A DNA stretch of 64,000 nt, from NCBI RefSeq assembly GCF_055900595.2, contig NZ_CM148325.1; one strand, given 5' to 3'. Below are positions 11,796 through 23,363 of the stretch, piece by piece. The position numbers were made by a program, and so were the translations under genes. The notes beneath the pieces are model-generated. The model did not search any database. It worked only from the letters and a program-made list of their open reading frames with translations, and was not told the DNA's origin. Each line of letters begins with the position of its first letter. Position 1 is the stretch's first letter.

Positions 11796-13223
11796 TCATT
11801 TAAAGCTATTTCGTAATGCTTTGTAATTAAACACGTTATGGTTTGCATCAAAAACATCTGATTTCCCCTGCCAGCGGGTAATCACCTCCTCTGGTGTTTT
11901 CGGTTGAGCCGGTCTGGTTACGCCCATCCATGCATTAATCAGATAATCATTATACGCAGTGGAAAAAACACTATTCACCGTCTGGCGATCGACATGCTCT
12001 CCCCGTGTCGGGCTGTACCAGATAAACATCGGAACATGATAAGCCTGCTGGCTGGGTTTTATTCCACCATGAAAATAAACGTGTTCTTTTGTCGGGTCAT
12101 ACTCCAGACCGTGATCTGAAAAATACATGACGGATGCCCGACGCGTTTCCAGCATGGCGAAAACCTGTCCCAACAAACTGTCGGTATAATGAATGGAATT
12201 ATCGTAGCAGACTTCTTCTGTATCCAGTGGTTTAAACACGGCTTTATCTCTGGGCCAGTTACTGCAGACTGGCTCATGGCTGCCCGTCAGATGCAGAACA
12301 ATCAGTTTCCTGCACCCCGGATTACTGTTCAGTGCTTCAGCCAGGTGCGGGAGCAGCAACTCATCATAGCCTCTGACATAAATTCTGTTTCTGGCCCGCA
12401 TGGCGATACTGGCCACAGCCGTTCCGTTCTGTCGGAAAGCGGACTGCGCACTGAGCCACCAGGTATCGAACCCTGCCTGATTCGCCATGTTGATAATATT
12501 ATCGGGGTAATGGCGAACATCATGATGCAGCACAGTATCAGCAGATAATGCCAACGGTACCGCAAGGGCGGTATAAGGTGCCCCGCTGATTGCCTGAGTG
12601 AACAGTTTCAGTCGTGATTTCTGTTTCTGAAGCTCTGGTGTGGTTGGCCGCGAGTACCCGTAAATGGACATGTTATCAGTCCTTGCTGATTCACCGATGA
12701 TCAGTACAAATTCATCAATATTATTGTCTGTAATCATCAGCTCGTAGTGAGGTATGGTATCAGCAATCGTCATTAATCTCTGATGCTCCTTTGCGGCCAG
12801 TGCAAAATAGTTCAGATTAAAGAAAGGGGTATATGTGGCAAACCGGGAAGCGACTATGTAAGGATCAACTTCATTTATTTGATACTGTTTCTTCAACGCA
12901 AACTGAAAGGAAGAATATAACGTTACTGTAATTAACAATAAAAATGTAATTACCGTGACCTTTCCCGAAGGCAATGAGGACGTTTTATTTATTGCTGAAC
13001 AGACGAACAATAAAAAGAGGATAATAAACGCAATAACATAGACGACATATATCCTGAACATTCTTATTGCTTCATCAGGATCTGTCTGTAGGATACTGAT
13101 TGCAAAACCATCATTGAATGTGGTGCCAAATGTACACCATGAATACAGGCTGATACTGATATCTGCCGCGGTCAGTAATGTGAACGGAAAGGCCAGAATC
13201 AAACGCAACGTAAGCGATTTCAT
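11796..13223 (-). CDS. Phosphoethanolamine-transferase-like (sulfatase-superfamily) membrane protein, possibly degraded at the 3' end
   Basis: 475 aa; N-terminal TM segments then sulfatase-like core (LIIGESARTDNMSIYGY..., LHLTGSHEP, YFSDHGLEYD...); an extra short downstream frame suggests a frameshift. Confidence 0.55.
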   Translation of the reverse strand: MKSLTLRLILAFPFTLLTAADISISLYSWCTFGTTFNDGFAISILQTDPDEAIRMFRIYVVYVIAFIILFLLFVCSAINKTSSLPSGKVTVITFLLLITVTLYSSFQFALKKQYQINEVDPYIVASRFATYTPFFNLNYFALAAKEHQRLMTIADTIPHYELMITDNNIDEFVLIIGESARTDNMSIYGYSRPTTPELQKQKSRLKLFTQAISGAPYTALAVPLALSADTVLHHDVRHYPDNIINMANQAGFDTWWLSAQSAFRQNGTAVASIAMRARNRIYVRGYDELLLPHLAEALNSNPGCRKLIVLHLTGSHEPVCSNWPRDKAVFKPLDTEEVCYDNSIHYTDSLLGQVFAMLETRRASVMYFSDHGLEYDPTKEHVYFHGGIKPSQQAYHVPMFIWYSPTRGEHVDRQTVNSVFSTAYNDYLINAWMGVTRPAQPKTPEEVITRWQGKSDVFDANHNVFNYKALRNSFK

Positions 13224-13295: not shown

Positions 13296-13618
13296 ATGAC
13301 TAAAAATACTCGTTTTTCCCCCGAAGTCCGTCAGAGGGCGATTCGTATGGTTCTGGAAAGTCAGGGCGAATATGACTCACAGTGGGCGGCAATTTGTTCC
13401 ATTGCCCCAAAGATTGGCTGTACACCGGAGACTCTGCGTGTCTGGGTACGCCAGCATGAGCGGGATACCGGAGGCGGTGATGGCGGGCTCACCACCGCTG
13501 AACGTCAGCGTCTGAAAGAGCTGGAACGTGAAAATCGTGAACTGCGCCGCAGTAACGATATCCTTCGCCAGGCTTCCGCTTATTTTGCGAAGGCGGAGTT
13601 CGACCGCCTCTGGAAAAA

Positions 13619-13622
<4 letters not shown>
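13296..13622 (+). CDS. IS629 OrfA
   Basis: [51 protein letters not shown]...; 108 aa. Confidence 0.9.
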
Positions 13623-14509
<887 letters not shown>

Positions 14510-14814
14510 GTTCACAGATAAAACACTCTCCAGGAAACCCGGGGCGGTTCATATCTGCTTTGGACAACGAGCCAATATGTGTTTTGAGACAGGACTTATC
14601 CGCCGCCATAATCTGCTCTACAATCGCTTTGCTGCTCTGACACCTACGGTCACAACAGCCTCACTTGGATACACTCGCTCTGTGTTACTGGTCAGAGGAA
14701 CGACGACTACTCGAGCGAGGTTCCTGTTTGCTGCGTCATTGCTCACGATCACTGCCGGACATGTCTTGCGGATTTCACTGTCAACAGCAGGATCAAATTC
14801 AATCCACCACGTCT

Positions 14815-14900
14815 CACCTGTGCCGTCACTGCTCTGTCATCTTTCTAACACTTTACTGTCTAACACATGTAATAAAAAAGTTATTTTTCTGCAATTCGAG
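14815..14900 (+). promoter_or_regulatory. ugpB promoter region with Pho-box-like repeats
   Basis: ctgtcatctttctaacactttactgtctaacacatgtaataaaaaagttatttttctgcaattcgagc resembles the PhoB-regulated ugp promoter of K-12 (from memory). Confidence 0.5.
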
Positions 14901-14973
14901 CATGATATTTAATCCCACGAGCATGAAACGTGTGAATTCGCTCATCAGGTACAACAAGCAAGAGAGATAAACG

Positions 14974-16290
14974 ATGAAACCGTTACATTATACAGCTTCA
15001 GCACTGGTGCTCGGACTGACGTTAATGGGGAATGCACAGGCAGTGACGACCATTCCGTTCTGGCACTCTATGGAAGGGGAACTGGGTAAAGAGGTGAATT
15101 CTCTGGTCCAACGTTTTAACGCCGAAAACCCGGATTACAAAATTATACCGACTTATAAAGGCAACTACGAAGAGAGTTTAAGTGCGGGGATCGCAGCATT
15201 TCGTACCGGTAACGCTCCGGCTATTTTGCAGGTTTATGAAGTTGGCACCGCCACCATGATGGCGTCGAAAGCCATTAAACCGGTGTATGACGTGTTTAAA
15301 GAGGCGGGGATTAACTTTGATGAGTCGCAGTTTGTGCCGACGGTTTCAGGCTACTACTCCGACAGCAAAACGGGACACTTACTCTCCCAGCCGTTCAACA
15401 GCTCGACTCCTGTTCTCTATTACAACAAAGATGCTTTCAAGAAAGCAGGATTAGACCCAGAACAGCCGCCGAAAACCTGGCAGGATCTGGCGGACTATGC
15501 CGCGAAACTGAAAGCCTCCGGTATGAAGTGCGGCTACTCCAGCGGCTGGCAGGGCTGGATCCAACTGGAAAACTTTAGCGCCTGGAACGGTCTGCCGTTT
15601 GCCAGCAAAAACAACGGCTTTGACGGCACAGATGCGGTGCTGGAGTTCAACAAGCCGGAGCAGGTGAAACACATCGCCATGCTCGAAGAGATGAACAAGA
15701 AAGGCGATTTCAGCTACGTCGGGCGTAAGGATGAATCCACCGAGAAGTTCTATAACGGTGATTGCGCAATGACGACTGCCTCTTCTGGTTCTCTTGCCAG
15801 CATTCGCGAGTACGCCAAATTCAACTACGGCGTAGGCATGATGCCTTACGACGCTGACGCGAAAGATGCACCACAAAACGCCATTATCGGCGGAGCCAGC
15901 CTGTGGGTGATGCAGGGCAAAGATAAAGAAACGTATACCGGCGTGGCGAAGTTCCTCGACTTCCTCGCGAAGCCAGAAAATGCTGCCGAGTGGCATCAGA
16001 AAACCGGTTATCTGCCAATCACCAAAGCGGCGTATGACCTGACCCGTGAGCAGGGCTTTTATGAGAAAAACCCAGGGGCGGATATCGCGACACGTCAGAT
16101 GCTGAACAAACCGTCGTTACCGTTCACCAAAGGACTACGTCTGGGCAACATGCCGCAGATCAGAGCGATTGTGGATGAAGAGCTTGAGAGCGTGTGGACC
16201 GGTAAGAAGACGCCACAGCAGGCGCTGGATACCGCCGTTGAGCGTGGGAATCAGTTACTACGCCGCTTTGAGAAATCGACGAAGTCTTAA
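14974..16290 (+). CDS. ugpB: sn-glycerol-3-phosphate-binding periplasmic protein UgpB (orphan copy, no ugpAEC downstream)
   Basis: 438 aa, [41 protein letters not shown]... near-identical to E. coli UgpB as recalled. Confidence 0.9.
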
Positions 16291-16424
16291 CCAGTGTAAT
16301 GTCGGATACGTTTCGCCTATCTGAGCTAACATCGCGTGTAGGCCGATGTGATTGACATCTTCCTCCTTACGGCATCAACGTTCCAGACTGAGATGTACCC
16401 AGTTCCCTGGTGGAGAAGTCAGTC

Positions 16425-17340
16425 ATGAATATTAATCGTATTGGTTTCGATCTTGCCGAAAAATGTTTTTCAAATCCACGGCGTTGATCACAATGAATAG
16501 TGGTACGGAGAAAAACGCTGAGCCCTCCCCACATGATGACGTTTTTCTCCGGGCTTTCTCCCTGCCTCATCAGCATCGAAGTCTGTGGCTCTTCCCATTC
16601 TGGGCACGGGAACTCATTCCGTATGGGGCCTACCGTGCGCATTATTCCGTAGAAACTTGTCAAATCTTATCTCAAAGGTAACAAAAACGACGCTAATAAT
16701 GCAGCTGCCATCTGTGAGGCCGTCAGCAGGCCCGGCATGCGATTTGTTGTTTTCATATCGGAATCCCAGCAGACGTTACAGGAAGAATACCGGGTCCGGG
16801 CCAGAATCATCCGCGAGCGAACGGCGTTGCGTAATGAAATCCGGGGGCTGTTGAGTGAATTTGGTCTGCTGCTGCCTGTGGGGATAAGGCACGTGCGTAA
16901 AATCCAGCAGGGAATACTGTCCAGGGGCAGTGGAATGACCCTTCATCCGTTTGTTGTGCGAACTGTCAGAGTAAAATGAACTCATATCGTCTCATGACCA
17001 CCGTCTTCATGAGGCTGCAAGGGATGATATCCGTATTAAACAGCTGATGGAGCTAAAAGGAGTTGGTCCCACAACAGCCTGTGCGCTGGTTGCCTGTATC
17101 GGTAATGCACATGATTTTAAAAAGGGACGGCAACTGGCAGCCTGGCTGGGCTGACGCTATCACAATACAGCAGCGGCTGAATGTCGAAGCTGGGCAGGAT
17201 AACAAAAGCCGGTGATTCGTATCTGCGAATGCTTCTGGTTCAGGGGGCTCGTTCAGTACTGATTGGTGCTGAGAAAAGGACTGACTCATTCAGTCGTTGG
17301 GTCTGTTCACTGGTTGAACGCAGAGAATACTGACGCGCTG
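16425..17340 (+). pseudogene. IS110-family transposase remnant (frameshifts and stops)
   Basis: MNINRIGFDLAEK..., ...ISIEVCGSSHSGHGNSFRMG..., ...MELKGVGPTTACALVACIGNAHDFKKGRQLAAWLG... across several frames. Confidence 0.6.
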
Positions 17341-17784
17341 TTGTGGCCATCGCCGCCAGAAAGGTAAGGCTGTGCTGGGCATCATGTCATTACGGTGATG
17401 ATTTCAGGCTGTATTCAGCCAGCTAAAGCACGCAGCAACCGTATGACTATCTGATCTGCAACTCGTTGATGATAAAGTGTTAGACCCCGTGAGGTATATC
17501 TGATTATTGTACAGGATATACGTATCCGCTTAACGAACAAGAGCCTCACTCGCGTCTTTCATCTGGGCCGAATAGATGGGATTCATCATGGTTGTTTATA
17601 GTACCGTCGTCTCTCCCCTTTATTTTTACAGAAAAGCAAACAGAAACCATAAATACCGGCGTTGACATGGCGGGGAAGCCGGCAACGGCTATCCCTACCG
17701 TAATCATAATATTTCTGTCATTTCTGCTCCCTACAATGACGTTAGTTTTACTTCTGGGCGATAACAACGAAAGGAGAGTATGAC

Positions 17785-19128
17785 ATGCACAACTCCAAAA
17801 TCCGGCTGGCTATACTGGTTGGCTGCATGGCTCTGAGCGCCAACCTGTGGGCCAAAGCGCAGCCGGTGCAGGCAACGCTGGCCGGGCATGCAATTCTGCC
17901 GGCAAAATCCGCTGTTTCAACACCGAAGGATGCGCCGGGCGATTTGCAACAGAGCGGCAAATACACCAGCGGCAAACGCGTCACCGAGCTGGGCAGCGTA
18001 GCGGGAAAATCCGCAGAACGCCTGACAGGACTCAGCCTGCCGATCAATGGTCAGCCGTTGCAGGGCCACTCAGGTATCAAACACATGCCCGACGGTACCT
18101 ATTGGGTGCTGACTGACAATGGCTTCGGCAGCAAAGCCAACTCCCCGGACGCCATGCTGTACCTCAACCAATACAAGATAGATTTCAAAGACGGCTCGGT
18201 AGTACCGCTGAAGACGCTGTTCCTGCATGATCCGGATAAAAAGGTGCCGTTCCACATCATCAACGAGAGCACCGAACTACGCTATCTGACCGGCAGCGAT
18301 TTTGATCCGGAAAGCTTCCAGTTTTCCGACGATGCCTTATGGATCGGTGATGAGTTCGGTCCTTACCTGATCAAGACCGACCTGAACGGCAAGGTGCTGG
18401 CGGTGTTCGACACAGAAGTGGACGGTAAGGTGGTTAAATCGCCGGACAACCCGACGCTGACTCTACCTAGCGCTCCGGACGGTAAGCTGAACTTCCAGGT
18501 GGCGCGTTCCAAAGGCTTTGAAGGCATGGCCATCTCGCCGGACGGCAGTAAGCTGTATCCGCTGCTGGAAGGGGCATTGTGGGACGGTGAGCAGTTCGAG
18601 AACGTTGGCGGAAAACGCTACCTGCGTGTGCTGGAGTTCGATGCCAAACAGCAGGCCTGGACTGGTCGCAGCTGGCAGTACGTGCTGGAAGACAACCAGA
18701 ACGCCATCGGCGACTTCAATATGATAGATGATACCCACGGACTGGTGATCGAGCGTGATAACGGCGAAGGCACGGCGGATAAAGCCTGCGTCGCCGGCGC
18801 GCCGACCAACAACTGCTTCAGTCAAGTAGCCAGGTTCAAACGGGTGTATAAAATTGCTTTCTCGGACACTAACGTCGGAAAACCTGTCGAAAAACTGGGC
18901 TATATTGACCTGATGAAGATTCAGGATCCGAACAAGCTGGCACGCAAGCCGCTGAACGACGGTGTGCTGACCTTCCCGTTCTTCACCATCGAGAACGTGG
19001 ATGTGGTTGACACTAACCACATCATCGTAGGCAACGATAATAACTTCCCGTTTTCCTCCAGCCGCTGGCCTAATATGGCGGATGACAACGAGTTTATTCT
19101 ACTGGATGTGAAGGATTTTCTGAAGTAG
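17785..19128 (+). CDS. Secreted phytase-like / esterase-like beta-propeller family protein (tentative)
   Basis: 447 aa with Sec signal peptide (MHNSKIRLAILVGCMALSANLWA); GFEGMAISPDGSKLYPLLEGAL-type blocks; family call is by eye only. Confidence 0.4.
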   Translation: MHNSKIRLAILVGCMALSANLWAKAQPVQATLAGHAILPAKSAVSTPKDAPGDLQQSGKYTSGKRVTELGSVAGKSAERLTGLSLPINGQPLQGHSGIKHMPDGTYWVLTDNGFGSKANSPDAMLYLNQYKIDFKDGSVVPLKTLFLHDPDKKVPFHIINESTELRYLTGSDFDPESFQFSDDALWIGDEFGPYLIKTDLNGKVLAVFDTEVDGKVVKSPDNPTLTLPSAPDGKLNFQVARSKGFEGMAISPDGSKLYPLLEGALWDGEQFENVGGKRYLRVLEFDAKQQAWTGRSWQYVLEDNQNAIGDFNMIDDTHGLVIERDNGEGTADKACVAGAPTNNCFSQVARFKRVYKIAFSDTNVGKPVEKLGYIDLMKIQDPNKLARKPLNDGVLTFPFFTIENVDVVDTNHIIVGNDNNFPFSSSRWPNMADDNEFILLDVKDFLK

Positions 19129-19284
19129 GGGGAAGAGCATCTTACGATACTCCTCGCTAATTTTAAAACGAACGGTGCTGAGCACCGTTTTTAATCACCT
19201 CGCCAGAACCTACCAGAATATGATGTTGGTTTATTATCACTGATTCATGGGGAGCACCCAGCGCTTCGGCGGTTTTTTATGTCT

Positions 19285-20109
19285 TTAAAGCAGTAGCGGT
19301 AGGGTCGCGCTGGCTGTTTTCTGGCTCACCTCGCTGTACTGGTCATCCAGCGCAATCAGCGATGTGGTGAGTAGCTCTACCAACAGCATCACTCCCACTT
19401 TGGCAGTCAGCGCGCCGGCACTCAAGGGTCCTTCCGGTTTGGCCGCGACCAGTTGAATATCACTCAGCGAAGCTAACGGACTGCGCGGTGTATTACTCAG
19501 CGCCAGTACACGCACACCTTGCTTACGCGCTAGTTTTACGACATGCAGCAGATCGCGCGTGGATCCAGAACTGGAAATCGCCACCACGAACGTGTTTTTA
19601 CTAAGTGTTGTGGCGTTCATGGCAGCACGATGCATATCGCTGAACAATTGTGCGGGTTTCCCCAGACGCAGGAGTTTATAATGTAAATACTCCCCCAGAA
19701 TGGCACTGGCTGCTACGCCATAAATCTGCACTGACTGAGCCTGATGCAGTGCAAGCGCGGCTGCTTCCAGCAAGGTTCTGTCGAGTAATTTTGCTGTGTC
19801 CTGTATTGCTTGCACGGATTCATTGACCACATTGTCAATCTCATCACCGCCGTGCTCTACAAACTGTACTTGTCGGAGATCGAGTGCCAGCGCCATTTTG
19901 AATTCGTTATAGCCCTTACACCCAAGCGTTCGGCACAGACGTGTGACGCTAGCCTCGCTGGTGCCGCTTTCACGCGCAAGTTCGGTAATCGTCAGGTAGA
20001 CAACTTTTGCCGGATCGCTAAGTACAAACTCTCCCAGCTTCTGTTGTGTTCGGCTATATCCATCAACGCTCTGGCGCAATCTCAGCAGCAGGTTTTCATT
20101 TTCTGACAT
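19285..20109 (-). CDS. RpiR-family transcriptional regulator (HTH + SIS domain)
   Basis: 274 aa; N-terminal HTH (LTITELARESGTSEASVTRLCRTLGCKGYNEFK) and SIS-like core; divergent from the PTS gene. Confidence 0.8.
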   Translation of the reverse strand: MSENENLLLRLRQSVDGYSRTQQKLGEFVLSDPAKVVYLTITELARESGTSEASVTRLCRTLGCKGYNEFKMALALDLRQVQFVEHGGDEIDNVVNESVQAIQDTAKLLDRTLLEAAALALHQAQSVQIYGVAASAILGEYLHYKLLRLGKPAQLFSDMHRAAMNATTLSKNTFVVAISSSGSTRDLLHVVKLARKQGVRVLALSNTPRSPLASLSDIQLVAAKPEGPLSAGALTAKVGVMLLVELLTTSLIALDDQYSEVSQKTASATLPLLL

Positions 20110-20274
20110 GTAAAATCCTTAATGCGTTTATCTGTTGATAGTGTGACGGAAAGGAGGGGATTGATGCCAGACATTTTAAAAAAGTATGATCGACTTCTTA
20201 GATTTTGATGGTGATTTTTATTTATAAGAATAATTATAGTAAAAATTTTCATCAAAAATCGAGGAGATGATAAA

Positions 20275-21831
20275 ATGATGCAAATGTTTAGCGGCGCTTC
20301 ATCGGGGGGATGGTTTGAAAAAGCGCAGCGGTTCGGAAAATCCTTCATGCTGCCGATTGCGGTATTGCCCGCAGCAGGGCTGTTATTAGGGATTGGTGGC
20401 GCGTTGTCAAATCCAAACACGTTGACGGCTTATCCGTTTTTAGATGCCGACTGGTTGCAGGCAATATTCACAATCATGACCAGCGCAGGTTCTATTGTGT
20501 TTGCCAACCTGTCGGTACTCTTTGCAGTCGGCGTCGCCGTGGGGCTGGCGAAATCGGATAAAGGCACTGCCGGGCTTGCGTCATTGCTGGCGTTTCTGGT
20601 GATGAATGCCACCATCAACGCCTTATTAACGCTCAACGGAACGCTGGCGCACAAGAACCCCGCTTCAGTTGGCCAGGGGATGACGCTTGGTATTCAGACA
20701 CTGGAAACTGGTGTGTTTGGTGGGGTGGTGATTGGTCTCGTCACCTGCACTTTACATAGCCGTTTCAATAAAGTCTCACTACCTCAGTTTCTCGGTTTTT
20801 TTAGTGGTTCTCGTTTTGTACCCATTATCAGCTCCCTTGCCGCGATAGTAGTGGGTGCGGTTATGACGGTGGTGTGGCCGCATTTCCAGAAACTCATTTT
20901 TGGACTGGGCGACCTGGTGGATGCGACGGGCTATCTGGGGACGCTGTTGTACGGCTTCATCCTGCGTATGCTTGGTCCACTGGGTTTACACCATATCTTT
21001 TATTTGCCGTTCTGGACGACGGCGCTGGGCGGCAGTGAAATCGTCAACGGCCAGTTGGTTGAAGGTACGCAGCGGATTTTCTTTGCCCAACTTGCCGATC
21101 CGAATACGCAGCAGTTCTACGCGGGTACCGCTCGCTTTATGTCCGGGCGCTTTATCACCATGATGTTTGGCCTGCTTGGCGCATGTCTGGCAATGTACCA
21201 TACTGCAAAGCCGGAGAATAGAAAGGTTGTCGCCGGACTACTTTTGTCAGCAGCCCTGACCTCTTTCCTGACGGGAATCACTGAGCCTGTTGAGTTCTCC
21301 TTCCTGTTTGTCGCGCCCGTATTATACGTAATTCACGCCTTCTTCGATGGTCTGGCGTTTATGGTCGCCCATATTTTACATATCACTATTGGGCAAACCT
21401 TTTCGGGCGGGCTTATCGATTTCCTTCTCTTCGGCGTGTTGCAGGGGGAAGCTAAAACAAACTGGATGTATGTCCCCATAGTGGGAATACCGTGGTTCTT
21501 CCTTTACTACTTTACTTTCCGCTATTTGATTAACCGCTTTGGCTGGCTGACGCCGGGGCGTGAGAACGTAACCCAGGTTGAATCCGGCCAGCCTCAGAGT
21601 GAACGCGCAGCGGCAGTCATTGCCGGGCTGGGAGGCAAAGAGAATCTGGAAGAGGTGGACTGTTGCGCCACGCGCCTGCGCGTGACGGTTAAAGAGAGCA
21701 GTAAGGTAGATGAAGCTGCGCTGAAAGTGGCCGGAGCGCGTGGCGTGATTATTCGCGGCAACGGCGTTCAGGTGATTTATGGCCCTCATGTCACCATCAT
21801 TAAAAACGAAGTCGAAGAGATTTTATCGTAA
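20275..21831 (+). CDS. PTS EIICB component, glucose/N-acetylglucosamine superfamily
   Basis: 518 aa; EIIC membrane domain plus C-terminal EIIB (...[12 protein letters not shown]...). Confidence 0.8.
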
Positions 21832-22520
21832 TGAAAACTGTACTGGATTCCCTGAAAGGTAAATTAATCGTCTCCTGTCAGGCTCTGGAAAATGAGCCTC
21901 TACATAGTCCGTTTATTATGTCACGTATGGCGCTGGCGGCAGCACAAGGTGGTGCTGCAGGTATCCGTGCCAACAGCGTGGCGGATATTAGTGCTATCAA
22001 AGAGATTGTCTCCCTTCCGATGATAGGGATTATCAAACGCGATTACCCTGGCAGTGAGGTGTTTATCACGGCCACTCTCCGGGAAGTGGATGAGCTGATG
22101 ACCGTTGAGCCGGAAATTATTGCCCTGGATGCTACTGCGCGCCCGCGCCCTAGTGGTCAGACGCTGGAAGAACTGGTCACGCAGATCCGCGCTCGCTACC
22201 CGTCCATACTTCTGATGGCAGATATAGCAACAGTAGAAGAGGCAGTGACAGCTGAACGTCTGGGTTTTGACTGTGTGGGCACTACGCTCTACGGCTATAC
22301 CGCAGAAACTGCTAGGCATGTGCTGGCGGAAAATGACTGTGGATTCTTACGTGAGGTCCTGAAAGCGGTCAGCGTTCCGGTCGTGGCGGAAGGGAATGTC
22401 GACACCCCGGAGTGCGCCGCACGTTGCCTGACATTAGGCGCTCATACCGTGGTGGTTGGGGGGGCAATCACTCGTCCGCAGCAGATAACGACACGCTTTA
22501 TCGCAGCGATCGCCTCGTAA
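21831..22520 (+). CDS. N-acetylmannosamine-6-phosphate 2-epimerase (NanE-like)
   Basis: 229 aa, [48 protein letters not shown]...; start overlaps PTS stop (operon). Confidence 0.8.
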
Positions 22521-22548
22521 AGCACCGATGAGGCATGATATTTTGCTG

Positions 22549-22576
22549 GGAATAAGCGATAATTATCGCTTATTCC
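22549..22576. repeat. Perfect 28-bp palindrome just downstream of the nanE-like gene
   Basis: ggaataagcgataattatcgcttattcc; no T-run follows. Confidence 0.6.
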
Positions 22577-22589
22577 ATATTGAGAGTGC

Positions 22590-22900
22590 TATGCAGTACC
22601 CGATTAGCTCGGCAGGGGCTAAATCATGGTTATCCGGTCATGCTGCGCATGGATAATGGCTCGGAATTTAACACTCTCGCGCTGACACTGGCTGAATGGG
22701 CATAGATACTCGCAGTAAAACGAGAGCTCAGCCAGCCTGGTCGAGTTACCCCTGATAGAGGAATACTGATCCTACCCCATGTAATGTGGACACAAGCCTA
22801 AGTGATGTTCTGGTTTTCAAATTGTTCCGTACTGAGACCACCACACCAGCTGTGCCCTAACAGGCACAGTTTCAGCACTCCTAAGCAACCGTAAAATGGC
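22590..22900 (+). pseudogene. Transposase integrase-core (rve) fragment, IS remnant
   Basis: ...GYPVMLRMDNGSEFNTLALTLAEWA* then shifted frames; DNGSEF block typical of rve-domain transposases. Confidence 0.3.
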
Positions 22901-23024
22901 ACCAGTTTCACAAGCAATTGTGCTCATTATTATTGCTATAACAAAAACCTTTTTTTCTGATGAATGAATTATTAATATAATTCTGATCAAACACCTGTTT
23001 TTTTAACCTACAGAAGGAGTTATT

Positions 23025-23363
23025 ATGAAAAAATACTCTTCTCCCGTCCTTGCACTCATTCTTGTTAGCAGCAGTATGGTATCCTCCGCTGCCACAAAAG
23101 AAATCTCAAAAACAGCTTATGTCTGTAATGGAAATAAGACAATGGAGGTGGTCTATATCAACACCACTGCTGGGAACTCATATGCAGTGATTAATCAGAT
23201 GGATGAGATGATACCTATGCAGCTTATGAAAATGGCCTCCGGAGCCAATTACGAAGCCATCAATAAAAGATACTCATATAAACTGTACACAAAAGGGAAA
23301 AAAGCCAATCTGGTGGAAGGGAATGATAATCCTGTCTTAAGCAACTGTTCATCGGCCGAATGA
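23025..23363 (+). CDS. MliC/PliC-family lysozyme inhibitor-like periplasmic protein
   Basis: 112 aa with signal peptide; ...YVCNGNKTMEVVY...MASGANYEAI...YKLYTKGKKANL...NCS pattern resembles MliC. Confidence 0.55.
   Translation: MKKYSSPVLALILVSSSMVSSAATKEISKTAYVCNGNKTMEVVYINTTAGNSYAVINQMDEMIPMQLMKMASGANYEAINKRYSYKLYTKGKKANLVEGNDNPVLSNCSSAE

What the first reader, a model, noticed from the sequence alone, without database searches (positions are those of the whole stretch)
17785..19128. Secreted phytase-like protein encoded next to the orphan Pho-regulon gene ugpB
A signal-peptide-bearing 447-aa protein with beta-propeller phytase-like blocks lies ~1.5 kb downstream of the ugpB copy, separated only by the IS110 remnant. 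If it is a secreted phosphoesterase, the pairing would make a small organophosphate-scavenging unit. The family assignment is tentative.
Basis: inference. Interest (0 to 1): 0.3.

Follow-up and report, generated by a model that had tools for sequence, protein, structure and literature searches.

The report
Phosphate-starvation-type exported propeller enzyme gene
This is an already-annotated E. coli island gene for an exported "phytase-like" beta-propeller protein that very probably helps scavenge phosphate, but it is a self-contained mobile gene with its own promoter, and insertion sequences, not a shared function, put it next to the stray ugpB copy.

Summary
Window 17785-19128 (+) is an intact 447-aa ORF with a Sec signal peptide and a full-length match to Pfam PF13449 "Phytase-like" (E 5e-61). 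It is not new: RefSeq annotates the same gene in 228 of 5426 complete E. coli genomes, and it is probably orf34 of the Shigella SRL island.

- **Pairing with ugpB:** not an evolved unit. The ugpB copy is a 1.5-kb fragment of an Escherichia-type ugp operon cut off by IS elements. No orthologue in about 85 other loci sits next to ugp genes. The conserved unit is only window 17691-19142, promoter plus gene, about 90% identical in DNA to Serratia.
- **Phosphate-scavenging idea:** indirectly well supported.
  - Orthologue promoters across alpha-, beta- and gamma-proteobacteria carry forward-oriented, 11-bp-phased Pho-box repeats (23/56 against 3/168 controls).
  - The gene pairs with phoX on E. coli and E. 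albertii plasmids and in Betaproteobacteria.
  - The C. jejuni orthologue lies in an operon that matches the phosphate-regulated Cj0727-0733.
  - The domain is fused to GDPD or PhoA domains elsewhere.
- **Substrate:** unknown. The fold is no closer to true beta-propeller phytase than to other propellers.

This is an ordinary, annotated accessory gene, of modest interest.

The parts
14813..14973 (+). Retained promoter fragment of the orphan ugpB copy, with tandem 11-bp-phased Pho boxes (for example CCGTCACTGCTCTGTCAT at 14823-14840 and CTGTCATCTTTCTAACAC at 14834-14851).
   Evidence: Homology to the K-12 ugpB upstream region starts at 14813. The boxes align with the K-12 ugp Pho boxes and score 12/14 and 11/14.
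14974..16290 (+). Orphan ugpB copy (periplasmic sn-glycerol-3-phosphate binding protein), 425/438 aa identical to K-12 UgpB. No ugpAECQ follows; homology to K-12 ends at 16345.
16425..17426 (+). IS110-family transposase pseudogene (frameshifted, with internal stops) separating ugpB from the phytase-like gene.
   Evidence: RefSeq annotation of the identical region in strain AR_0085, mapped to window coordinates. Only fragmented ORFs are found here.
17691..19142 (+). The conserved transferable unit: promoter, 5' UTR and coding sequence of the phytase-like gene.
   Evidence: Homology to the 93% allele on IncF/IncI plasmids spans exactly 17691-19142. Homology to Serratia (90% nt) spans 17706-19128. 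Upstream of this block the enterobacterial loci cannot be aligned.
17704..17721 (+). Pho-box-like 18-mer TCATAATATTTCTGTCAT. The promoter-proximal half-site CTGTCAT is perfect; the distal half-site TCATAAT is degenerate.
   Evidence: The proximal half-site is conserved in 13 of the 15 aligned enterobacterial and Halotalea promoters, while the flanks diverge (the Providencia row is misaligned in A1, though the raw scan finds CTGTCAT there too). The site is 15/18 identical to the phoX promoter element on plasmid pRM14721. Taken alone its score (10/14) is not rare in the window.
17732..17737 (+). -10 hexamer TACAAT, 10 bp downstream of the Pho-box-like element. No -35 hexamer is present.
   Evidence: Sequence read. 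The equivalent hexamer is TATAGT in most orthologues. The consensus scan finds no sigma-70 -35/-10 promoter upstream of the gene.
17738..17784 (+). 5' UTR conserved among Enterobacterales (GACGTTnnTTTTACyTyTGGGCnA...), with a GGAG ribosome-binding site at 17773-17776.
   Evidence: Alignment A1. No Rfam family matches.
17785..17853 (+). Sec type-I signal peptide (residues 1-23, predicted cleavage LWA|KA).
   Evidence: In the AF2 model residues 5-21 form a lower-confidence helix ahead of the folded domain.
17785..19128 (+). Coding sequence of the PF13449 'phytase-like' beta-propeller protein (447 aa).
19251..19277 (+). Weak terminator-like hairpin with a T-run, downstream of the gene.
   Evidence: Consensus scan only, and no more frequent than in shuffled sequence.

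Best explanation
The gene encodes a Sec-exported, periplasmic, metal-dependent (probably Ca2+) beta-propeller hydrolase of the uncharacterised PF13449 family. It most likely releases phosphate, or a transportable phosphomonoester, from an organic phosphate ester during phosphate starvation. It is a self-contained cassette, window 17691-19142, made of an activator-dependent promoter, a 5' UTR and the gene. The promoter has a Pho-box-like site in place of a -35 hexamer. E. coli acquired the cassette horizontally from a Serratia-like source, and IS elements placed it beside an orphan ugpB fragment.

Shown here: the ORF, the signal peptide, the family, the propeller fold, purifying selection, the cassette boundaries, and Pho-box enrichment in orthologue promoters.

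Inferred: PhoB control of the E. coli copy, phosphoesterase chemistry, the metal dependence, and the substrate.
For: - **Family and fold.** PF13449 matches over its full length at E 5e-61. The AF2 model has pLDDT 95.7 and is an all-beta propeller. Many acidic residues, plus Arg and Lys, are invariant or nearly so across 59 homologues of 33-84% identity: D111, D149, R166, D172, E323, D325, R427, and also E176, E190, E246, E262, E403, D418.
- **Export.** All homologues carry Sec signal peptides.
- **Promoter.** In 56 non-redundant orthologue upstream regions, forward GTCAY occurs 47 times against 10 in reverse at -130..-30 (p=7.5e-7). 11-bp-phased pairs occur in 23/56 regions against 3/168 controls (p=3.6e-13). 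Examples are TTTTCATACTGCTGTCAT-N10-TATAGT in Pectobacterium and GCGACATCAAGCTGTCAC-N10-TATAGT in Halotalea. The enterobacterial footprint begins at this element. There is no sigma-70 -35/-10 promoter. Known K-12 ugpB Pho boxes score 10-11/14 on the same scale.
- **Gene associations.** The gene is convergent with a Tat-signal PhoX gene on at least 4 plasmids, and the phoX promoter shares 15/18 of the 18-mer. phoX lies directly downstream in two betaproteobacterial loci. The C. jejuni orthologue sits in an operon of binding protein, phytase-like gene, PF01663 phosphodiesterase, ABC transporter and HAD hydrolase; gene order matches this to Cj0727-0733. Genes Cj0728-Cj0734 are reported as phosphate-regulated (PMC1892558 citing Wosten 2006).
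- **Domain fusions.** The domain is fused to GDPD in 5 of 8 sampled multidomain relatives and to PhoA-type alkaline phosphatase in 1 of 8.
- **Expression in relatives.** A protein annotated as this family, and a phytase-domain GDPD protein, are strongly induced by P limitation in Nodularia (PMC9846622).
- **Selection.** dN/dS is 0.09-0.14.
Against: - No member of this orthologous group has a published activity that I could find, and no solved structure is detectable by sequence.
- The E. coli promoter's distal half-site is poor (3/7). Sites scoring 10/14 or better occur 82 times in the window, so the E. coli site is convincing only through conservation.
- No neighbour is conserved across loci, so the context evidence comes from a minority of lineages.
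- I could not inspect the model coordinates to confirm that the conserved acidic residues cluster into a metal site.
Confidence: 0.6

Rival explanations
1. One reading: ugpB2 and the phytase-like gene form a functional two-gene scavenging unit. The exported enzyme would act as a glycerophosphodiesterase in the periplasm, making glycerol-3-phosphate that the extra UgpB captures for the resident UgpAEC transporter.
For: - Both genes are on the same strand, and no + strand terminator was detected between them.
- Both keep Pho-box-type promoters.
- 203 of the 228 E. coli carriers hold the whole ugpB-IS110-phytase-like arrangement.
- PF13449 is repeatedly fused to GDPD domains, and some sources name orthologues 'glycerophosphodiester phosphodiesterase'.
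- The C. jejuni orthologue follows a solute-binding protein gene.
Against: - The adjacency is confined to one E. coli island lineage. No ugp gene flanks any of about 85 orthologous loci.
- ugpB2 is a truncated fragment bounded by IS sequences.
- The plasmid versions lack ugpB.
- The high within-E. coli frequency of the trio can be explained by clonal spread of a single island.
- The 'glycerophosphodiesterase' names probably derive from fusion proteins, not from assays.
Confidence: 0.15
2. It is a genuine Ca2+-dependent beta-propeller phytase that frees phosphate from phytate in the gut, which would be advantageous in grain-fed poultry.
For: - The Pfam family name and clan, and the many conserved acidic residues.
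- In systematic samples, 31/60 carrier genomes come from poultry against 3/60 of all E. coli (Fisher p 9e-9).
Against: - Pfam PF02333 (true 3-phytase) does not match even at E<=1.
- From my own knowledge, E. coli already has the potent periplasmic phytase AppA.
- The poultry enrichment may simply reflect clonal avian-pathogenic lineages.
- Orthologues also occur in Moraxella, Neisseria and Campylobacter, where phytate is an unlikely substrate.
Confidence: 0.15
3. It is not a phosphoesterase. It would be an exported propeller with another activity or a binding role, such as a glutaminyl-cyclase-like or lactonase-like enzyme or a YjiK-like protein of unknown function, and the Pho-box-like repeats would be bound by a different regulator.
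For: - The best structural matches are glutaminyl cyclases and YjiK.
- The family has no biochemical characterisation; PMC11219571 describes a 'phytase-like' protein as uncharacterised.
- The E. coli Pho box is weak.
Against: The oriented, phased Pho-box enrichment across three proteobacterial classes, the phoX pairing, the C. jejuni operon that matches phosphate-regulated Cj0727-0733, and the GDPD and PhoA fusions all point the same way.
Confidence: 0.12

Closest known systems
[quoted passage not shown]
   Same: The profile matches over its full length. RefSeq annotates identical DNA under this name in E. coli. SRL orf34 is listed as 99.78% identical to a protein of this name, and was originally described as 52% similar to a C. 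jejuni periplasmic protein (PMC6980539). That fits the 50% identity I found to C. jejuni.
   Different: Nothing differs in sequence. The family name implies an activity that has not been demonstrated for this orthologous group.
Beta-propeller phytase (Bacillus TS-Phy/PhyC, PDB 1POO; Pfam PF02333)
   Same: An exported beta-propeller with many conserved acidic residues, consistent with Ca2+-dependent phosphate-ester chemistry.
PhoX (Ca/Fe beta-propeller alkaline phosphatase, Pho regulon)
   Same: An exported propeller; it is a genomic partner on plasmids and in Betaproteobacteria, and the plasmid copy has a similar promoter element.
   Different: No detectable homology (hhalign probability 0.6%). 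This protein has a Sec signal peptide, not a Tat one.
Bacterial/plant-type glutaminyl cyclase (PDB 3MBR, 3NOK) and the E. coli YjiK C-terminal domain (PDB 3QQZ)
   Different: Only 10-12% identity, and only about half of the 447-residue protein is covered. No sequence-level relationship is detectable.
C. jejuni Cj0727-Cj0733 phosphate-regulated operon (Cj0728 'putative periplasmic protein')
   Same: The orthologue is 50% identical, matches PF13449 at E 1e-53, and is embedded in an organophosphate uptake and hydrolysis operon reported as phosphate-regulated.
   Different: The E. coli gene is monocistronic, with no dedicated transporter. Campylobacter uses PhosS/PhosR and a different pho box. Mapping locus L078 to the Cj numbers rests on gene order and my recollection of the NCTC 11168 annotation.

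Membership tests
Pfam PF13449 Phytase-like | Score above the Pfam gathering threshold (27.6 bits) over the whole profile | tested here: met
   207.4 bits, E 5.4e-61, profile positions 1-284 of 284.
Pfam PF13449 Phytase-like | Beta-propeller fold with conserved Asp and Glu residues | tested here: met
Pfam PF13449 Phytase-like | Phytase or esterase activity | not testable with these tools
   No biochemical data were found for this orthologous group in the ten literature searches.
Beta-propeller phytase (PF02333, 3-phytase) | Sequence match to the 3-phytase profile | tested here: not met
   The Pfam scan at E<=1 returned only PF13449.
Beta-propeller phytase (PF02333, 3-phytase) | Closest structural similarity to the six-bladed Bacillus phytase | tested here: not met
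Beta-propeller phytase (PF02333, 3-phytase) | Conserved Ca2+-binding and phytate-binding residues in the active-site cleft | not tested
PhoX alkaline phosphatase family | Homology to PhoX | tested here: not met
   hhalign of the 59-sequence profile against the plasmid PhoX gives probability 0.6%. Pfam finds no PhoX domain.
PhoX alkaline phosphatase family | Twin-arginine (Tat) signal peptide | tested here: not met
   No RR motif in any homologue. The plasmid PhoX does have SRRRLLQTGA.
Pho regulon (PhoB-activated promoter) | Pho box (two 11-bp-phased CTGTCAT-type repeats) replacing the -35 hexamer, about 10 bp upstream of the -10 hexamer | tested here: inconclusive
   In the E. coli copy the proximal half-site is 7/7, the distal 3/7, the spacing to TACAAT is 10 bp and there is no -35. 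A score of 10/14 is not rare by chance. Across orthologues the feature is clearly met: 23/56 against 3/168 controls, p 3.6e-13.
Pho regulon (PhoB-activated promoter) | Induction by phosphate limitation, dependent on PhoB | not testable with these tools
   Needs an expression experiment. Only indirect literature exists, for C. jejuni and Nodularia family members.
ugp operon (ugpBAECQ) as a functional unit with this gene | ugpB followed by the permease, ATPase and UgpQ genes | tested here: not met
   Homology to K-12 ends 55 bp after the ugpB stop codon, and an IS110 pseudogene follows.
ugp operon (ugpBAECQ) as a functional unit with this gene | Conserved linkage of the phytase-like gene with ugp genes in other genomes | tested here: not met
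   tblastn with the K-12 Ugp proteins against about 90 loci found no ugpB. The ugpA, ugpE and ugpC hits were to unrelated ABC systems (50% identity or less; the L010 genes are a separate LacI/GH31 sugar-uptake cluster).

The most novel reading that the evidence does not exclude
The roughly 450-aa stand-alone PF13449 orthologous group is 50-93% identical from Rhizobiales and Comamonadaceae to Serratia, Yersinia pestis, Moraxella and Campylobacter. It could be an unrecognised, widespread class of Pho-regulon periplasmic phosphoesterase, distinct from PhoA, PhoD, PhoX, PafA and Psip1. It would circulate on plasmids and pathogenicity islands of E. coli, Shigella, E. albertii and E. fergusonii, often together with phoX, and could give poultry-associated lineages a phosphorus-acquisition advantage.
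Probability: 0.35. Interest if true: 0.55.

Novelty: already known. Interest (0 to 1): 0.25.

Why it matters
As found, it matters little: it is an annotated accessory gene of a known Pfam family sitting in an IS-riddled island. The modest value lies elsewhere.

- The family has a misleading name and no demonstrated activity, yet it is highly conserved. Its promoters carry Pho boxes across three proteobacterial classes, which makes the Pi-starvation hypothesis directly testable.
- The gene travels with phoX on conjugative plasmids and is over-represented in poultry E. coli. This hints that phosphorus acquisition is a mobile, selectable trait in gut and avian-pathogenic strains.
- It is a caution against reading function from adjacency inside mosaic islands.

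Tried and rejected
- **Lipoprotein.** LVGC at residues 11-14 resembles a lipobox. I rejected this because Cys14 is not conserved and the hydrophobic core continues past it.
- **3-bp insertion.** I first thought the E. coli Pho box had a 3-bp insertion relative to S. fonticola. The closest Serratia and Yersinia relatives share the E. coli spacing, so this is lineage variation in the distal half-site.
- **Strict consensus search.** Searching the window for CTGTCATAWAWCTGTCAY with up to 3 mismatches found nothing, even at the genuine ugpB boxes. That pattern was too strict to be informative.
- **PDB by sequence.** Single-sequence and profile searches gave only noise. Foldseek against the PDB gave only generic propellers at TM about 0.3.
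- **afdb50 fold search.** The library was unavailable.
- **Conserved neighbours.** The gene upstream of the orthologue in 63 loci fell into 83 Pfam families, and none dominated.
- **Ancestral ugp linkage.** None found.
- **Riboswitch or known RNA in the conserved 5' UTR.** No Rfam hit.
- **Literature.** No characterised PF13449 enzyme turned up under PF13449, COG4222/4246, PhoAaty or 'phytase-like' terms. One search was wasted on 'PhosR', which matched unrelated software.
- **Atypical alkaline phosphatase.** I could not verify whether the cyanobacterial 'atypical alkaline phosphatase' PhoAaty contains this domain.

Full report
**Observation.** Window 17785..19128 (+) is an intact 447-aa ORF. 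Its N-terminus, MHNSKIRLAILVGCMALSANLWA|KAQ, is a classic Sec type-I signal peptide. The N-termini of about 85 homologues all have the same design. Cys14 is Ser in Yersinia and there is no twin-arginine motif, so this is neither a lipoprotein nor a Tat substrate. Pfam PF13449 'Phytase-like' matches end to end (E 5.4e-61, profile 1-284/284). No NCBIfam model matches it, and no solved structure is related by sequence. The neighbouring ORF 14974..16290 is UgpB (NCBIfam equivalog, E 4e-281).

**Genome background.** The window is an E. coli accessory island. The 4.4-kb stretch ugpB, IS110 pseudogene, phytase-like gene and start of an RpiR gene is 100% identical to many RefSeq chromosomes, and 203 of 5426 complete genomes hold at least 80% of it. 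[quoted passage not shown] A re-annotation of the Shigella flexneri SRL pathogenicity island lists orf34 as 99.78% identical to a protein of this name. Its original description was '52% to a C. jejuni putative periplasmic protein' (PMC6980539), which fits the 50% identity I find to C. jejuni. The gene itself is therefore not new.

**Is the pairing with ugpB meaningful?** The evidence says it is not an evolved unit.
- Homology of the ugpB copy to the K-12 ugp operon runs only from window 14813 to 16345. That is 161 bp of promoter, the gene (93.5% nt; 425/438 aa), and 55 bp beyond the stop codon. ugpA, E, C and Q are missing, and an IS110 pseudogene follows. It is a fragment of an Escherichia-type operon.
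- The phytase-like gene has a different origin. Its nearest relatives are in the Serratia marcescens group (93% aa, 90% nt), followed by Yersinia including Y. pestis (about 83%).
- Across seven loci with precomputed annotation the neighbours are all different: xyl genes, fimbriae and a relaxase, a formate dehydrogenase cluster, an FtsX transporter, a TetR regulator and others.
- Among 63 non-redundant loci, the gene upstream of the orthologue falls into 83 Pfam families with no dominant one.
- tblastn with the K-12 Ugp proteins finds no ugpB beside any orthologue.
- The unit that is actually conserved is window 17691-19142, where homology to a 93% allele on plasmids starts and stops. Serratia homology spans 17706-19128.
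- One plasmid carries the 3' part of the IS110 remnant plus the gene between two IS1 copies, without ugpB.

The juxtaposition is IS-mediated. Its high frequency within E. coli (203 of 228 carriers) is most simply the spread of one island.

**Promoter.** Alignment of 15 enterobacterial and Halotalea upstream regions shows nothing alignable until a sharply conserved block: ATAATATTTCTGTCAT, then 10 nt, then TATAGT, then a conserved 5' UTR. In the window this block reads TCATAATATTTCTGTCAT (17704-17721), 10 nt, then TACAAT (17732-17737). There is no -35 hexamer, and the consensus scan finds no sigma-70 promoter. This is the architecture of PhoB-activated promoters, in which a Pho box of two 11-bp-phased CTGTCAT repeats sits 10 bp upstream of the -10 hexamer (established knowledge of the E. 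coli Pho regulon).

Other orthologues have much better boxes:
- Pectobacterium: TTTTCATACTGCTGTCAT
- Entomohabitans: AGGTCATATTTCTGTCAT
- Halotalea: GCGACATCAAGCTGTCAC
- Curvibacter: CTGTCATCAGCGCGTCAT
- Rhizobiales: runs of three or four phased TCAT/GTCA repeats

The statistics are as follows.
- Best forward 18-mers scoring 11/14 or better occur in 20% of 85 upstream regions, against 1% of shuffles and 0% on the reverse strand.
- In 56 non-redundant regions, GTCAY occurs 47 times forward against 10 reverse at -130..-30 (p 7.5e-7).
- Phased pairs occur in 23/56 regions against 3/168 controls (p 3.6e-13).
- The known K-12 ugpB boxes score 10-11/14 on the same scale, and the island's ugpB copy keeps them at 11-12/14.

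One caveat is important. The E. coli site alone scores 10/14 with a weak distal half-site, and 82 sites in the window score at least as well. Its credibility rests on conservation, not on its own score.

**Associations with phosphate genes.**
- On at least four plasmids of different replicon types (IncF and IncI-gamma/K1) in E. coli and E. albertii, the 93% allele lies tail to tail with a PhoX-family phosphatase gene that has a Tat signal.
- That phoX promoter contains TCATTATATTTCTGTAAC-N10-TAGACT, 15/18 identical to the phytase-like gene's element and with the same spacing.
- phoX also lies immediately downstream, on the same strand, in two betaproteobacterial loci.
- In C. jejuni the orthologue (PF13449, E 1e-53) is the second gene of an operon that follows corA: solute-binding protein, phytase-like gene, PF01663 type-I phosphodiesterase, two ABC permeases, an ATPase and a HAD hydrolase. 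By gene order and my recollection of the NCTC 11168 annotation this is Cj0727-Cj0733. PMC1892558 states that Cj0728-Cj0734 were shown to be phosphate-regulated, citing Wosten et al. 2006.
- In eight sampled multidomain relatives, PF13449 is fused to GDPD glycerophosphodiesterase domains in five, to a PhoA-type alkaline phosphatase in one, and to RTX Ca2+-binding repeats in four.
- In Nodularia, a protein annotated as this family and a phytase-domain GDPD protein are among the genes most strongly induced by P limitation (PMC9846622).

**Most likely mechanism.** During phosphate limitation, PhoB~P would bind the Pho-box-like site and recruit RNA polymerase to the -10 at 17732-17737 (inferred). 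The roughly 40-nt leader and GGAG site would drive translation. The precursor is exported by Sec and cleaved after residue 23 (inferred from sequence). The periplasmic propeller, probably loaded with Ca2+, would hydrolyse an organophosphate ester (inferred). Whether the substrate is a monoester, a diester such as a glycerophosphodiester, or phytate cannot be decided here. I put about 0.6 on 'Pho-controlled exported phosphoesterase', and 0.15 or less on each specific substrate or partnership model. The ugpB copy, with its own Pho boxes, may be co-induced and could use the resident UgpAEC transporter, but this is an assembled rather than an inherited combination.

**Verdict.** Family, export and the phosphate theme hold; the evolved ugpB unit does not, and phytase activity is unsupported. 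The gene is already annotated and belongs to a known, though biochemically uncharacterised, family. Interest is low to modest. The most novel reading the evidence does not exclude is that this conserved orthologous group is an overlooked Pho-regulon phosphoesterase class that moves with phoX on enterobacterial mobile elements.

Noticed in passing
L092:6094-9691; also L094, L095, L096 (plasmids pRM14721, p2011C-4180-2, CP141865, CP099214): A 93%-identical allele of the gene lies tail to tail with a Tat-signal PhoX-family phosphatase gene on IncF and IncI-gamma/K1 plasmids of E. coli and E. albertii. The phoX promoter carries TCATTATATTTCTGTAAC-N10-TAGACT, 15/18 identical to the phytase-like gene's promoter element. 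PhoX is not part of the E. coli core genome, so this looks like a mobile phosphate-scavenging pair.
   Followed up: partly
window 17691-19142 (host metadata of E. coli genomes carrying it): In evenly spaced samples of 60 genomes, 31 carriers came from chickens or other poultry, against 3 of 60 for all complete E. coli genomes (Fisher p 9e-9). This may reflect clonal avian-pathogenic lineages rather than function.
   Followed up: partly
window 14813-16345: The orphan ugpB is 97% identical in protein to K-12 UgpB. It keeps the native tandem Pho boxes but none of ugpAECQ. It is a second, probably Pi-starvation-inducible copy of the binding protein that would have to use the resident transporter.
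   Followed up: partly
window 17738-17784: The 5' UTR of the gene (GACGTTnnTTTTACyTyTGGGCnA...) is conserved among Serratia, Yersinia, Salmonella-plasmid and E. coli copies although the flanks diverge. No Rfam family matches, and I did not examine it for structure or sRNA pairing.
   Followed up: no
L078:4881-11377 (Campylobacter jejuni 414): The C. jejuni orthologue sits in a seven-gene operon: binding protein, phytase-like gene, PF01663 phosphodiesterase, two permeases, an ATPase and a HAD hydrolase. This suggests periplasmic processing followed by uptake and cytoplasmic dephosphorylation of an unknown organophosphate.
   Followed up: partly
L003:9753-10052 and L091:2944-3384: On a Salmonella plasmid/ICE-like contig the gene is followed by a DUF2756 (YhhA-like) gene. 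In K-12, yhhA lies immediately after ugpQ. This could be coincidence or a trace of an older ugp-linked context.
   Followed up: no
window 11796-13223 (-): A 475-aa membrane protein with a Sulfatase (PF00884) domain, resembling phosphoethanolamine-transferase-type enzymes, lies just left of the IS3 element.
   Followed up: no
window 13296-14509 (+): An IS3-family element whose transposase is split into several ORFs (108, 162 and 128 aa), so it is probably inactive. It forms the left boundary of the ugpB fragment.
   Followed up: no
window 19285-23363: Downstream lie a divergent RpiR/SIS regulator gene, a PTS EIICB gene and a NanE (ManNAc-6-P epimerase) gene, which together look like an amino-sugar uptake module. 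An MliC-type inhibitor of c-type lysozyme follows.
   Followed up: partly
L005:5528-9377 (Pectobacterium parmentieri): In Pectobacterium and Samsonia the orthologue follows a Peripla_BP_4 binding-protein gene and an LVIVD-repeat propeller gene on the same strand. It also has one of the best Pho boxes (TTTTCATACTGCTGTCAT).
   Followed up: no
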